A stretch of 64,000 nt of DNA. Source: an uncultured Bacteroidales bacterium (GTDB taxonomy: Bacteria > Bacteroidota > Bacteroidia > Bacteroidales > VadinHA17). The notes beneath the pieces are model-generated. The model did not search any database and had not been told where the DNA came from. It saw only the letters and a program-made list of their open reading frames with translations. A program made the position numbers and the translations under genes. The DNA lies in assembly GCA_963717685.1 (NCBI GenBank), contig OY970346.1:1183695-1247694 (forward strand), read 5' to 3'. Every line of letters begins with the position of its first letter. Position 1 is the stretch's first letter. Of the stretch, positions 55,065 to 57,300 are shown in pieces.

Positions 55065-55391
55065 TTATACCCCGAAGAGTTCTCTTATCTTCTTAAGTTC
55101 ATCAAATTGCTTTTGGGGTGCATTTGTGTTTTTTAATCTTTCTAATTCATTTTCAAGCTCTGAAATGAACTTGGACGGATAGAATAGGTCTAATAGATCT
55201 ACCTTTTGACTGGCCACCATAGCGTTTTCCATAGTTGAATCCTTGCAAAGAATAAAAATTGTCATAGGGTTCTCTGAAAAATCGTAGATGATGATGTTGT
55301 AATACTTCATCCCTTCGTCCAATGAGTTTATATCCCATTGAAGCTGATCCACCATCTTTTGAAGTCGTTCTATTCTTTGCTTTATTGTCAT
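55065..55391 (-). CDS. Hypothetical protein (108 aa, coiled-coil ends)
   Basis: The ORF is tightly spaced, 13 nt after the ClpS-like gene. No family recognised. Confidence 0.5.
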   Translation of the reverse strand: MTIKQRIERLQKMVDQLQWDINSLDEGMKYYNIIIYDFSENPMTIFILCKDSTMENAMVASQKVDLLDLFYPSKFISELENELERLKNTNAPQKQFDELKKIRELFGV

Positions 55392-55404
55392 ATATATCAG
55401 TTAT

Positions 55405-55698
55405 TTAGTTTAAATAAGAACTAATTCTGACAATTGTTGTTTTTAATTGAAATTTGCTCAACTCATGTCTTAAAAGGTTCAAATCATGAAAAGTCCCGTA
55501 TCGTATTATTGCATTTTGCTTATCAGCCATCTTCATAATCCTTACAGAATTTTCGTAAGACCAACCATTTTGGTACAATGCCATGACAACGTCGATAGCT
55601 TTGTTAGGGCCATCCCATAAAAGAAGAAAACAACTTTCACCTTCAGTGTACTGATTCTTATAAGTCTCTTTCTTTTTATGGCTATCGTTGTTCAGCAT
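55405..55698 (-). CDS. ClpS-like (N-recognin adaptor fold) protein
   Basis: CFLLLWDGPNKAIDVVMALYQNGWSYENSVRIMKMADKQNAIIRYGTF aligns by eye with the E. coli ClpS core ([47 protein letters not shown]). Confidence 0.6.
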   Translation of the reverse strand: MLNNDSHKKKETYKNQYTEGESCFLLLWDGPNKAIDVVMALYQNGWSYENSVRIMKMADKQNAIIRYGTFHDLNLLRHELSKFQLKTTIVRISSYLN

Positions 55699-55770
55699 AT
55701 CAAATTAATTTACATTAAAAAGGTACTTCTAAGTATTAAAGGTTATCATTCAAGATATCATGATAATCAG

Positions 55771-55831
55771 CTTATCCTAAGCAACTTAGAAAGGTCGGCA
55801 AAAATACAGCAAAAAACCGGAACTGCCTAAT
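55771..55831 (-). promoter_or_regulatory. Conserved ~60-bp upstream element, copy A (73 nt upstream of the ClpS-like gene)
   Basis: cttatcctaagcaacttagaaaggtcggcaaaaatacagcaaaaaaccggaactgcctaat. About 80% identical to 57240-57300. Confidence 0.5.
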
Positions 55832-55879
55832 CAAAGCATATTATTGATTCGAGATGGATTACGCAAAGTCGAATTAGGG

Positions 55880-56320
55880 CTATTTAACTGAAAAGATCAG
55901 TTCAATCATTGGAGGTGAGATCAATATACATTGATAGTATCCTTTTGCTTTCAGAGAAGAATAGAAACTCACTGATAACATGAATATACAAAAAGAGGAA
56001 CTAATAATTGTTCCCAAAGTACTTCCTAAAATTAACAATATCAAGGCAATAACAAGAAATAAAATAGCTAGAAATCTTGCAATAACATCTCTAGAAAGCC
56101 AGATATGAATGTTTTCTAATGATTCATTTATAAACATGCGGATGTATAACTGCATGTTAAACTCAGATTTATCCTCAAGTAACCTGGCATAGTATGCTCC
56201 ATGTTCAATTTTGTTCTTCCACGGAAATTCTACATACTTTCTCAATTTTAGACCATTAAAAGAATACTTACCGTATTTAATTTCTGAAAGATCTATGATG
56301 TTTATTAATCGGTTAATCAT
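55880..56320 (-). CDS. Hypothetical membrane protein (146 aa, 2 TM)
   Basis: TM segments FLAILFLVIALILLILGSTLGTIISSSFCIFMLSVSFY. Confidence 0.45.
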   Translation of the reverse strand: MINRLINIIDLSEIKYGKYSFNGLKLRKYVEFPWKNKIEHGAYYARLLEDKSEFNMQLYIRMFINESLENIHIWLSRDVIARFLAILFLVIALILLILGSTLGTIISSSFCIFMLSVSFYSSLKAKGYYQCILISPPMIELIFSVK

Positions 56321-56393
56321 TTAATAGGTAATTATTGATTTATAAATAAAAGACCCTAATATTAGTATATCTGTCAGTTAGTTAATTAAAAAT

Positions 56394-56699
56394 TCAATTC
56401 AAACAGTGATTGTCAGTTACCAGCTCAATCGTAGTCGTTAAATTCAGTTCGTTGAGTCCTTCTCTTATTATCTCCAACTCAGAAAACGTCCCATACCTGA
56501 CTATCGAATTCCCGTGATTATGAGCCGTTAACATAATTCTAACGGAGTTCTCATCTGAAATGCCGATTTGGCATAAAGCTGTGACAACATCAATTGCTTT
56601 ATGAAAATCATCGTTCCATAGTACCAGAAAACAATTTTCCTCTTCCTGCTGCCAGATTTATTTTGAGGTATTGTCCTTATTTTTACTGCTTTGTGTCAT
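56394..56699 (-). pseudogene. Second ClpS-like gene, interrupted by an in-frame TAA at codon 14 (not in the ORF track)
   Basis: Own translation is MTQSSKNKDNTSK*IWQQEEENCFLVLWNDDFHKAIDVVTALCQIGISDENSVRIMLTAHNHGNSIVRYGTFSELEIIREGL... TAA is at 56658-56660. LWNDDF and IMLTAHNHGNSIV match ClpS LVNDDY and [13 protein letters not shown]. Confidence 0.6.
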
Positions 56700-56721
56700 G
56701 TTTTTTCTCTTATTAATACCC

Positions 56722-57147
56722 TTATTTGAATTTATAAATCTCAACCTGTAAGTCAAGAGTGACAAAATCCAACTTCCTGAATTCTTTGACAAAGTCAATG
56801 AATTGATCGTCTTCTGTCTCGAAGTAACCTGACCAGTTATTTATGTAATATACCTGTCCATTCCTGCATTTAATTTGTCCTGCCATTATGATTTCATTTT
56901 CTTTCTTTGCTAGCTTGAAATGTCCAATTCCAAAGAATAGTTTGAATTTTGTATCAATAAGGAAATTTACTGCGTCACCATCGGTAACAATAGGGTCGAA
57001 TCTTAGTTTCTTGTCTAGAATAACGGCTTTTAACATTTTGGTAGCAACTTGTGGCACCAAATTCTTCATTTTAATTAAAGGCAAATTTGGTGTTATCAAG
57101 TCACTTAAATCAATAAAGAAGTCATTATCCTTACTTATTTCCTTCAT
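56722..57147 (-). CDS. Hypothetical protein (141 aa)
   Basis: Clean ORF, divergent from the HEPN-motif gene. No family recognised. Confidence 0.5.
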   Translation of the reverse strand: MKEISKDNDFFIDLSDLITPNLPLIKMKNLVPQVATKMLKAVILDKKLRFDPIVTDGDAVNFLIDTKFKLFFGIGHFKLAKKENEIIMAGQIKCRNGQVYYINNWSGYFETEDDQFIDFVKEFRKLDFVTLDLQVEIYKFK

Positions 57148-57239
57148 ATGGTAATAAAAATTTATTAATTGATAGTTTATATAAAAAAAGGTCCCTTCAG
57201 GTTCCTAAGAATATTGACCACGACGCTATAATTAATATG

Positions 57240-57300
57240 CTAATCTTAAGTAACTTAGAAGGGTAGACAAAATTAAGGCAAAAAACCGGAACTGCCTAAT
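57240..57300 (-). promoter_or_regulatory. Conserved ~60-bp upstream element, copy B (93 nt upstream of the 141-aa gene)
   Basis: ctaatcttaagtaacttagaagggtagacaaaattaaggcaaaaaaccggaactgcctaat. Confidence 0.5.

What the first reader, a model, noticed from the sequence alone, without database searches (positions are those of the whole stretch)
55065..57300. Two ClpS-like (N-recognin fold) genes as island cargo, each module preceded by the same ~60-bp element
The 97-aa ORF at 55405-55698 and an unannotated reading frame at 56394-56699 both align by eye to the ClpS core. LWNDDF and IMLTAHNHGNSIV correspond to E. coli LVNDDY and [13 protein letters not shown]. ClpS is normally a single housekeeping adaptor encoded next to clpA. 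Here there are two diverged copies inside an integrase-bearing island, mixed with small unknown proteins of 108, 141 and 146 aa. Two gene modules are each preceded by a conserved element (55771-55831 and 57240-57300, about 80% identical, ending AAAAAACCGGAACTGCCTAAT), which suggests common regulation. The island also encodes an Arg/agmatine-deiminase-fold enzyme, so a protein-N-terminus or degradation-based mechanism (defence or counter-defence) is conceivable. That link is speculative.
Basis: partly seen in the sequence, partly recalled or inferred. Interest (0 to 1): 0.6.

Follow-up and report, generated by a model that had tools for sequence, protein, structure and literature searches.

The report
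ClpS-like operon beside island integrase
A small tRNA-integrating genomic island in a Bacteroidales genome carries, next to its excisionase and integrase genes, a rare three-gene operon whose middle gene is a diverged ClpS protease adaptor; the window holds one intact and one recently broken copy, each module behind the same ~150-bp promoter-leader, so this is an unusual variant of a known protein family, not a new kind of system.

Summary
ORF 55405-55698(-) models as a ClpS fold (best PDB matches are all ClpS, TM 0.81-0.84). Frame 56394-56699(-) matches Pfam ClpS (E=1.3e-10) but has an in-frame TAA at codon 14, where intact homologues have Lys, so it is a recent pseudogene. The two elements are real: 52/61 identical, and the 23-mer has only these two copies in 64 kb. 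They are the 5' ends of a ~135-153-bp conserved upstream region. It starts at ATTAGGCAG, contains a Bacteroides -7 box (TAnnTTTG) and a long hairpin followed by a U-run, and runs to the start codon.

Related loci show a conserved operon, 141 aa -> ClpS-like -> 108 aa, always just upstream of xis-int. More distant islands with the same integrase lack it. The family is tiny (5 ClpS-like and 10 141-aa clusters in 5.8 billion proteins), and all three genes are under purifying selection. The window island is a recombinant: [146-aa gene, element, type-A ClpS] sits inside a type-B operon whose own ClpS then broke.

The PAD-like enzyme is not co-conserved, so that link is not supported. The mechanism (docking on a host ClpA/ClpC unfoldase) is inferred only. 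Phage-borne ClpS is a known precedent.

The parts
53163..53206 (-). 3' fragment of a tRNA gene (anticodon loop CTCATAA, T-arm). This is the island attachment-site copy next to the integrase.
   Evidence: Read from the sequence. ARAGORN finds no whole tRNA in the window. The same stretch is conserved next to integrases in L003, L013, L015 and L021.
53352..54560 (-). Tyrosine integrase, 402 aa
   Evidence: PF00589 and PF13102. It is 97% identical to the L003 integrase and 74% to the L001 integrase.
54573..54785 (-). HTH_17 excisionase-like protein, 70 aa
   Evidence: PF12728, E=3.5e-9. It is conserved next to the integrase in all related islands.
55065..55391 (-). 108-aa protein, third gene of the conserved operon, no known family
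   Evidence: Homologues of 48-92% identity sit directly after the ClpS-like gene in L001, L003-L007 and L009. dN/dS is 0.04-0.22. There are no Pfam or PDB hits.
55405..55698 (-). Intact ClpS-fold gene, type A, 97 aa (ClpS1)
   Evidence: AF2 model and Foldseek hits to ClpS. It is 68% identical to P0002 in L001. dN/dS is 0.09.
55699..55833 (-). Element copy 1: promoter-leader fused directly to ClpS1. It has a TAnnTTTG box at 55799-55806 and a weak hairpin at about 55726-55792.
55880..56320 (-). 146-aa predicted membrane protein, part of the inserted segment
   Evidence: ORF. There is a 47%-identical 148-aa homologue in L003-L005, upstream of their operon.
56394..56699 (-). ClpS-like type-B pseudogene (ClpS2*), with TAA at codon 14 (56658-56660)
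   Evidence: Pfam ClpS, E=1.3e-10. The stop is seen. It is 94% identical to intact P0005. dN/dS against L003 is 0.08.
56722..57147 (-). 141-aa protein, first gene of the conserved operon, no known family
   Evidence: There are 10 clusters in 5.8 billion proteins, all 61-82% identical. The gene is followed after a 22-nt spacer by the ClpS-like gene in L001 and L003; L009 and L010 have a 23-nt spacer. dN/dS is 0.12-0.38. The AF2 model is unusable, pLDDT 37.
57148..57302 (-). Element copy 2: promoter-leader of the operon. It has a TAnnTTTG box at 57268-57275, a hairpin at about 57193-57263, and a T-run.

Best explanation
Shown:
- The region is the integrase-proximal part of a small genomic island integrated at a tRNA 3' end.
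- Next to xis-int lies a lineage-specific operon, 141-aa protein -> ClpS-fold protein -> 108-aa protein. All genes point toward xis-int.
- The operon is headed by a ~150-bp conserved non-coding element. The element contains an invariant Bacteroides -7 promoter box and then a long hairpin plus U-run about 40 nt before the start codon.
- The ClpS-like proteins come in two types. Type B (101 aa) keeps the NDD...H pocket motif and matches Pfam ClpS. Type A (97 aa) has an altered pocket.
- The window island is a recombinant. A segment [146-aa gene, element, type-A ClpS] was placed between the type-B ClpS and the 108-aa gene. The now redundant type-B copy acquired a nonsense mutation.

Inferred:
- The element is the promoter plus a 5' leader. 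Its hairpin and U-run probably act as an attenuator or a 5' stabiliser that sets the expression of the operon, and possibly of xis-int downstream.
- The ClpS-like protein has the full ClpS architecture: a disordered, Lys-rich N-terminal extension of about 20 aa and a core of about 80 aa. It probably docks on the N-domain of a host ClpA/ClpC-type unfoldase. There it would either hand over a dedicated client (for example the 141- or 108-aa protein, Xis/Int, or a host protein) or block the host adaptor. This would tie the island's maintenance or excision to host proteolysis.
For: - Fold and family.
- Disordered N-terminal extension: pLDDT below 50 for residues 1-16. The Msm ClpS preprint (10.1101/2024.06.12.598358) describes the same two-part ClpS architecture, with the N-terminal segment needed for hand-off.
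- Conserved gene order 141 -> ClpS-like -> 108 -> xis -> int in L001, L003-L006 and L009-L010.
- Purifying selection on all three genes.
- Only one intact ClpS-like gene is kept. The stop lies in an otherwise 94%-conserved copy.
- Mosaic structure: the stretch from the 108-aa gene through xis and int to att is 95% identical to L003, while 141-ClpS2 is only 81% identical.
- The element is conserved upstream of the 141-aa gene in L001, L010, L011 and L012, with a sharp 5' boundary at ATTAGGCAG. It is 73-93% identical, although the neighbouring gene's dS is 1.1-1.8 for window pairs and the flank is at about 50-60%.
- TAnnTTTG is invariant in all five copies. It is the Bacteroides -7 consensus according to PMC4747536.
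- Hairpin plus U7: z = -7.0 to -7.5 in L001, L011 and L012. 89% of cells are paired, against 40-53% when the partners are slid.
- Precedent: several jumbo phages encode their own ClpS, proposed to feed targets to host ClpAP (PMC7824862). Phage ClpS models match structurally.
Against: - No interaction with any Clp unfoldase was tested. The host genome outside the window could not be inspected for clpA/clpC/clpS.
- The intact type-A copy lacks the residues aligned with E. coli D35/D36 and His66. Neither of the two acidic residues of the ClpA-docking helix is kept in type A, and only one is kept in type B (alignments; roles and from memory).
- The gene trees of the three genes are discordant, so specific pairwise complexes are not indicated.
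- The 141-aa gene with its element also occurs without any ClpS-like gene (L011, L012).
- The hairpin is weak in both window copies (z = -1.4 and -1.6). It has no significant covariation.
- No -33 TTTG lies at the canonical distance. TAnnTTTG is not enriched in the window overall (72 observed, 87 expected).
Confidence: 0.4

Rival explanations
1. The ClpS fold has been re-used as a Clp-independent protein-binding module. The three proteins would form an island-specific unit, such as an excision/maintenance regulator or an addiction/abortive-infection module, with no link to proteolysis.
For: - Type A lost most canonical pocket and docking residues.
- The family's own invariant residues (ExCFLxLW, ENSxRI, YGxF, TTI) differ from the canonical ClpS signature.
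- The position beside xis-int is fixed.
- There is no clpA/clpC nearby.
- The ClpS fold is shared with the L7/L12 C-terminal domain, so the fold alone does not prove adaptor function.
Against: - Type B keeps N-D-D and His and scores 41 bits on Pfam ClpS.
- The disordered N-terminal extension typical of unfoldase-engaged ClpS is kept in both types.
- Discordant gene trees and a stand-alone 141-aa gene argue against a cognate toxin-antitoxin-type pairing.
- There are no PADLOC hits.
Confidence: 0.3
2. One reading: the ClpS-like genes work with the Arg/agmatine-deiminase-fold enzyme in a defence or counter-defence mechanism based on protein N-termini.
For: - A PAD_porph-like gene (E=6.5e-20) and a type I restriction R subunit lie 2-4 kb away in the same island.
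- Related islands also carry defence-type cargo: Vsr, a methylase and NERD in L001.
Against: - The PAD-like gene has no homologue in any of the related loci that carry the ClpS-like operon.
- It lies beyond a divergently oriented gene and outside the conserved module.
- There are no PADLOC hits for any of these proteins.
Confidence: 0.04
3. The repeated element is only a transcription terminator/insulator, or a mobile repeat, and has no promoter or regulatory role for the downstream genes.
For: - The hairpin is followed by T7, on the sense strand only.
- Copy 1 follows a co-oriented gene, the 146-aa gene.
Against: - Copy 2, and the copy in L001, follow no co-oriented gene.
- The element is always 135-153 bp long and ends at the start codon of the same gene family.
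- There are only two copies in 64 kb.
- Conservation covers the 5' 35 nt, including an invariant -7 box, as strongly as the hairpin.
Confidence: 0.12
4. The whole module is decaying, non-functional DNA.
For: One ClpS-like copy is a pseudogene. The family is extremely rare.
Against: dN/dS is 0.04-0.38 for all three genes across lineages. ORFs are intact in at least 8 independent contigs. The spacing is conserved.
Confidence: 0.04

Closest known systems
Housekeeping ClpS (E. coli ClpS; M. smegmatis ClpS, PDB 9b1p/9ayn)
   Same: - Same alpha/beta core fold (TM 0.81-0.84, rmsd about 1.8-2.0 A).
- Same two-part layout: a disordered N-terminal extension of about 20 aa and a core of about 80 aa.
- Type B keeps the N-D-D and His pocket residues and passes the Pfam threshold.
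   Different: - Sequence identity is only 15-22%.
- It is encoded in a mobile island next to xis-int instead of next to clpA.
- Type A lacks the pocket residues apart from one Asp (D29), and is not recognised by Pfam.
- The Met40 gatekeeper is replaced by Ala.
- It is embedded in an operon with two orphan proteins.
Second ClpS paralogues (Agrobacterium tumefaciens ClpS2, PDB 4yjm; Leptospira ClpS1/ClpS2, PMC12493166)
   Same: They are additional, diverged ClpS copies in one genome. The best sequence-level PDB alignments include AtuClpS2.
   Different: Those are chromosomal paralogues of the core genome. Here the copies are island-borne and only one is intact.
Phage-encoded ClpS (jumbo phages such as Atu_ph07 gp708; PMC7824862, PMC6102473)
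   Same: A mobile element carries its own ClpS-fold adaptor, presumed to exploit the host Clp machine. There are structural matches to phage ClpS models.
   Different: There is no sequence relative in phage, plasmid or viral-contig collections. The carrier is a small integrative island, and the gene is part of a fixed three-gene operon.
Promoter-proximal attenuator/terminator leaders of bacterial operons
   Same: A conserved leader with a long stem-loop followed by a U-run lies between the putative promoter and the start codon.
   Different: There is no leader peptide, no alternative antiterminator fold, no Rfam match and no covariation support. The stem is weak in the two window copies.

Membership tests
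ClpS (Pfam PF02617) | Profile match above the curated threshold | tested here: met
   This row is for type B. ClpS2* scores 41.4 bits against a cut-off of 23, E=1.3e-10. Four of six family members hit. NCBI names P0005 ClpS.
ClpS (Pfam PF02617) | Profile match above the curated threshold, for the intact type-A gene 55405-55698 | tested here: not met
   There is no ClpS hit in Pfam or NCBIfam at E<=1. Homology is only transitive, through type B (E=9e-24).
ClpS | Alpha/beta core of three helices packed on a three-stranded sheet | tested here: met
   The AF2 model has strand 23-27, helix 31-43, helix 48-60, strand 63-68, helix 70-81 and strand 87-91. The top Foldseek PDB hits are ClpS from five species.
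ClpS | Poorly conserved, flexible N-terminal extension of about 20 residues before the core | tested here: met
   Residues 1-16 have pLDDT below 50. The N-termini are Lys/Asn/Ser-rich and variable.
ClpS | N-degron pocket: residues that hold the alpha-amino group (Eco N34/D35/D36/H66, from memory; Msm D33/H65) and the Met40 gatekeeper | tested here: inconclusive
   The test is by alignment only. Type B has W-N-D-D and His but Ala at the Met40 position and His at the T38 position. Type A (window) has W-D-G-P, a loop one residue shorter, and Asp instead of the pocket His. Type A in L001 keeps the His.
ClpS | Docking on the N-domain of ClpA/ClpC (two acidic residues, Msm E78/E81) | not testable with these tools
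   Alignment suggests that one of the two is kept in type B (SELE) and neither in type A (HDLN). No binding test or complex model was possible.
ClpS | Genomic linkage with clpA (typical, not universal) | tested here: not met
   The neighbours are xis, int and orphan genes in every locus. There is no further clpS-like sequence in the window. The rest of the host genome was not available.
Phage-encoded ClpS | Encoded on a virus genome | tested here: not met
   There is no relative in IMG/VR contigs or in GenBank phages. The carrier has int/xis and no virion genes in the part seen.
Toxin-antitoxin / addiction module | Cognate partners that co-occur and co-evolve; a recognisable toxin or antitoxin family | tested here: not met
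   There are no Pfam, PADLOC or PHROG hits for the 141- or 108-aa proteins. The gene trees are discordant. The 141-aa gene occurs alone in L011 and L012.
Bacteroidetes housekeeping promoter | -7 box TAnnTTTG (PMC4747536) and -33 TTTG about 19-21 nt upstream (spacing from memory) | tested here: inconclusive
   The -7 box is invariant in all five copies. No TTTG lies at the canonical distance. The motif is not enriched in the window overall. No transcript data are available.
Intrinsic terminator / attenuator | Stable stem-loop directly followed by a U-run on the transcribed strand | tested here: inconclusive
   It is met in L001, L011 and L012 (dG -30 to -37 kcal/mol, z about -7, then U6-U7). 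It is weak in the window copies (dG -18.6 and -14.1, z about -1.5). There is no covariation.
Dispersed repeat family of the window | Many copies at unrelated positions | tested here: not met
   There are only two copies in 64 kb. The position is conserved upstream of the same gene in other islands.

The most novel reading that the evidence does not exclude
A family of small Bacteroidales integrative islands encodes its own ClpS-type adaptor within a dedicated three-protein operon under an attenuator-like leader. The islands would use it to re-programme a host ClpA/ClpC protease, either to time excision and integration by controlled degradation of island proteins, or to remove or protect host defence or antitoxin proteins. 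The pocket-altered type A would then be an adaptor with a new, non-N-degron specificity.
Probability: 0.2. Interest if true: 0.6.

Novelty: new variant of a known kind. Interest (0 to 1): 0.38.

Why it matters
ClpS is the textbook bacterial N-recognin and is nearly always a chromosomal housekeeping gene. Adaptors borne on mobile elements have so far only been noted, without experiments, in jumbo phages. If these island copies really act on the host Clp machine, they would be a compact natural example of a mobile element rewiring host proteolysis. The two types, one with a canonical-looking pocket and one with an altered pocket, appear interchangeable in the same operon. That would make them a useful pair for asking what besides N-degron binding a ClpS core can do.

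The practical value now is modest:
- It corrects an annotation. One gene is missed by Pfam and one is a pseudogene.
- It defines a rare operon and its promoter-leader for testing.

Tried and rejected
- Sequence searches found no remote relatives beyond a handful of close clusters. One hit, P0004, is a repeat-protein false positive.
- hhalign of the small family alignments against a single E. coli ClpS sequence was uninformative (probability <1%). The PDB profile search was weak (E=0.45). I relied instead on Pfam for type B and on structure for type A.
- AF2 of the 141-aa protein failed (pLDDT 37), so no fold search was made for it. No prediction slot was left for the 108-aa protein.
- Pfam, NCBIfam, PADLOC, PHROG and PDB searches gave nothing credible for the 141-, 108- and 146-aa proteins.
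- GTDB genomes contain no 141-aa homologue. The metagenome scan added only three short contigs. Viral contigs, phages and plasmids gave none.
- Rfam has no match on the element.
- Covariation tests on the hairpin were not significant with five sequences.
- The afdb50 fold library was unavailable.
- A hairpin reading of GGCA...TGCC inside the 23-mer was considered. RNAalifold does pair ATTAGGCAG with TTGCTGTAAT (10 pairs, two one-sided changes), but this stem overlaps the putative -7 box, and I do not rely on it.
- An integron attC-like reading was rejected. The element lies upstream of the cassette-like module, and the integrase is not of the IntI type.
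Full report
**What is in the sequence**

All genes between 53.3 and 57.2 kb lie on the minus strand. In the direction of transcription the order is:
- element copy 2 (57302-57148)
- a 141-aa ORF (57147-56722)
- a ClpS-like frame (56699-56394)
- a 146-aa predicted membrane protein (56320-55880)
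- element copy 1 (55833-55699)
- a 97-aa ORF (55698-55405)
- a 108-aa ORF (55391-55065)
- an HTH_17 excisionase-like gene (54785-54573)
- a tyrosine integrase (54560-53352)
- a 3' fragment of a tRNA (53206-53163), which I read as the attachment-site copy

The variable cargo lies beyond the module, at higher coordinates. It comprises a 174-aa protein (phrog_19013), a PAD_porph-like protein, a YgjP-like peptidase, a type I restriction R subunit and a RecD-like ORF.

**Are the two sequences ClpS-like?**

The second frame matches Pfam ClpS well above threshold (41.4 bits against 23, E=1.3e-10). It carries the quoted WNDDF and TAHNHG motifs. The frame is interrupted by TAA at codon 14 (56658-56660).

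Intact homologues from other samples (P0003, P0005, P0006; 79-94% identical) have Lys at that position. An independent short-read assembly of the same population has the same stop (L002). No usable start codon follows until Met56. Against L003, dN/dS is 0.08 with dS 0.48. The gene was therefore under selection until recently and is a fresh pseudogene.

The 97-aa ORF has no Pfam or NCBIfam ClpS hit. It is a clear paralogue of the second frame (56% identity, E=9e-24). Its AlphaFold2 model has a confident core (pLDDT 85-91) with the order strand-helix-helix-strand-helix-strand and a disordered N-terminus. The best PDB matches are ClpS from M. smegmatis, Arabidopsis, Caulobacter, E. coli and Agrobacterium (TM 0.72-0.84 normalised to the target, rmsd about 1.8-2.1 A). 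The fold-related L7/L12 C-terminal domain ranks below them. Phage ClpS models match too. The ClpS fold is thus confirmed for both sequences.

**Two types with different pockets**

Six family members fall into two types:
- Type B: 101 aa (L003, L009, L010 and the window pseudogene).
- Type A: 97 aa (the window's intact gene and L001).

Roles of the ClpS residues come from the M. smegmatis ClpS study. There Asp33 forms a salt bridge to the N-terminus, His65 helps through a metal ion, Met40 (E. coli numbering) is the gatekeeper, and two acidic residues stabilise the interaction with the ClpA N-domain. I also recall the E. coli residues N34, D35, D36 and H66 from memory. Using the HMMER alignments to solved ClpS:
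- Type B keeps W-N-D-D and the His. It has Ala at the gatekeeper position and one of the two docking acids.
- Type A has W-D-G-P with a loop one residue shorter. It keeps only the first acidic residue and neither docking acid. In the window copy the pocket His is Asp; L001 keeps His.

Canonical N-degron binding is therefore plausible for type B and doubtful for the only intact copy in this window. These are alignment-based inferences, not tests.

**Genomic context elsewhere**

The family is extremely rare:
- Five ClpS-like clusters in 5.8 billion proteins.
- Three hits among 1.8 billion representatives, one of them spurious.
- Ten clusters of the 141-aa protein.
- No relatives in GTDB representative genomes, viral contigs, phages or plasmids.

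Wherever enough DNA is available, the order is 139/141 aa, then ClpS-like after a 22-23-nt spacer, then 108/110 aa, then HTH_17, then the 402-aa integrase. This holds for L001, L003-L006, L009, L010 and L025.

Islands with integrases 44-78% identical (L013-L021, Bacteroidota and Prolixibacteraceae MAGs) keep xis-int but lack all three genes. The operon is therefore not shuffled cargo. It is an accessory module with a fixed place beside xis-int in one sub-lineage. All three genes are under purifying selection (dN/dS 0.04-0.38). The cargo differs between islands, and the PAD-like gene is found only in the window.

**Why there are two copies here**

From the 108-aa gene through xis and int to att, the window is 95% identical in DNA to L003, a type-B island. 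The 141-ClpS2 stretch is only 81% identical to L003. ClpS1 is type A, closest to L001 at 68%. Its junction with the 108-aa gene has the 13-nt spacer of L001, not the 27-nt spacer of L003. The 146-aa gene has a 47%-identical homologue further upstream in L003.

The simplest reading is recombination between related islands. It placed [146-aa gene, element, type-A ClpS] between the type-B ClpS and the 108-aa gene, and the type-B copy was then lost to a nonsense mutation. The gene trees are discordant in general. L001 and L009 share an 82%-identical 141-aa protein, but their ClpS-like proteins are 46% identical. L001 and L003 share an 80%-identical 108-aa protein, again with 46%-identical ClpS-like proteins. 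The two ClpS types therefore appear interchangeable within the operon.

**The repeated element**

The 23-mer GCAAAAAACCGGAACTGCCTAAT is identical in both and unique to them in the window.

Read in the gene direction, the similarity starts sharply at (TG)ATTAGGCAG and runs to the start codon. It covers 153 bp before the 141-aa gene and 133 bp before ClpS1, where the last ~20 nt are missing. The same element, with the same 5' boundary, precedes the 141-aa gene in L001, L011 and L012, and partly in the truncated contigs L009 and L010. It is not found in the L003 lineage, whose upstream region keeps only a short similar core and has its own 16-bp long-range stem.

The element is 73-93% identical between lineages. 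That is as conserved as the coding sequence next to it. Synonymous sites of that gene are near saturation for window pairs (dS 1.1-1.8), and the flank beyond the boundary aligns at 49-67%. Non-coding constraint follows by inference.

All five full copies contain TAATTTTG or TATTTTTG at the same column. This matches the Bacteroides -7 consensus TAnnTTTG (PMC4747536). The motif is common in this AT-rich DNA (72 matches against 87 expected), and no -33 TTTG lies at the usual distance. The promoter assignment therefore rests on conservation, not on the match itself.

A long imperfect hairpin starts 2-3 nt after the box (GGTCCTTCCAAGTT...AACTTGGAAGGACC) and is followed by T6-T7, about 40 nt before the ATG. 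It is very stable in L001, L011 and L012 (-30 to -37 kcal/mol, z -7.0 to -7.5). It is weak in both window copies (-18.6 and -14.1 kcal/mol, z about -1.5). On the alignment 89% of cells pair, against 40-53% for slid partners. Covariation is not significant with five sequences. Rfam has no match, and there is no leader ORF. My reading is a promoter plus a 5' leader whose terminator-like hairpin attenuates or stabilises the transcript. This is inferred.

**How it most likely works**

Shown:
- a ClpS-fold protein with a ClpS-like disordered N-terminal extension
- conservation inside a three-gene operon that points into xis-int
- a constrained promoter-leader
- one intact copy per island

Inferred (about 0.3-0.4): the protein docks on a host ClpA/ClpC-type unfoldase. 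There it either delivers a dedicated client or blocks the host adaptor, linking the island's maintenance or excision, or its conflict with the host, to proteolysis. The precedent is phage-encoded ClpS, proposed to bring targets to host ClpAP (PMC7824862).

The main rival (about 0.3) is that the fold has been re-used as a Clp-independent binding module. This is favoured by the eroded pocket and docking residues of type A. A cognate toxin-antitoxin arrangement is unlikely, because the gene trees are discordant and the 141-aa gene occurs alone in L011 and L012. The link to the PAD-like enzyme is not supported.

**Verdict**

Type B is already recognised as ClpS by Pfam and by NCBI annotation, and ClpS on mobile elements is known from phages. 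The new points are the island-borne three-gene operon, the pocket-altered type A that profile searches miss, the replacement of one type by the other in this island, and the conserved leader. I rate this a new variant of a known kind, of moderate interest.

Noticed in passing
window 53163-53206 (-); L003 12546-12643 and 14473-14570: A 3' tRNA fragment (anticodon loop CTCATAA, i.e. CAT) lies directly after the integrase, with no whole tRNA in the window. It presumably marks one island end, and the other end lies beyond 64000. In L003 the same ~98-bp att region occurs twice, 1.9 kb apart, which suggests a second small element in tandem.
   Followed up: partly
window 57385-64000: The island cargo is a 174-aa protein matching phrog_19013 (E=2.5e-16, unknown function), a PAD_porph-like 314-aa protein, a YgjP-like metallopeptidase, a type I restriction R subunit (HSDR_N, SWI2_SNF2, T1R_D3), and then a 388-aa ORF with only RecD/UvrD C-terminal domains. 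No hsdM or hsdS is seen within the window.
   Followed up: partly
L001 5762-6892 (+): The related island L001 carries a classic-clade AAA ATPase (PF00004 + AAA_lid_3) about 2.6 kb from its ClpS-like operon, next to Vsr, a C5 methylase and a NERD protein. It is not conserved in the other islands, so no link to the ClpS-like gene is claimed.
   Followed up: partly
L011 1735-2701; L012 920-1499: The element plus the 141-aa gene occur without the ClpS-like and 108-aa genes. In L011 a tRNA-Phe lies 320 bp downstream. In another contig (P0016, no DNA available) the neighbour is a large serine recombinase. The 141-aa module therefore moves between different element backbones.
   Followed up: partly
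L003 9420-9522: The L003-type upstream region lacks the element. It has its own long-range inverted repeat, TGACCACTTTTGGCCGG...CCGGCTGAATGTGGTCA, around the same core, without a following T-run (z = -2.2).
   Followed up: partly
window 54973-55004: A 14-bp perfect hairpin lies between the 108-aa gene and xis. Its T-run is on the plus strand, where no gene is present, so it may not stop minus-strand read-through into xis-int.
   Followed up: no
window 13837-14376 / 14812-15351; 2595-3413 / 7704-8522; 5162-5959 / 8585-9382: Pairs of ORFs have identical lengths (179, 272 and 265 aa). Palindromic TATATTTG/CAAATATA sites lie at 13571-13582 and 14546-14557. They are unrelated to the element studied here.
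   Followed up: no
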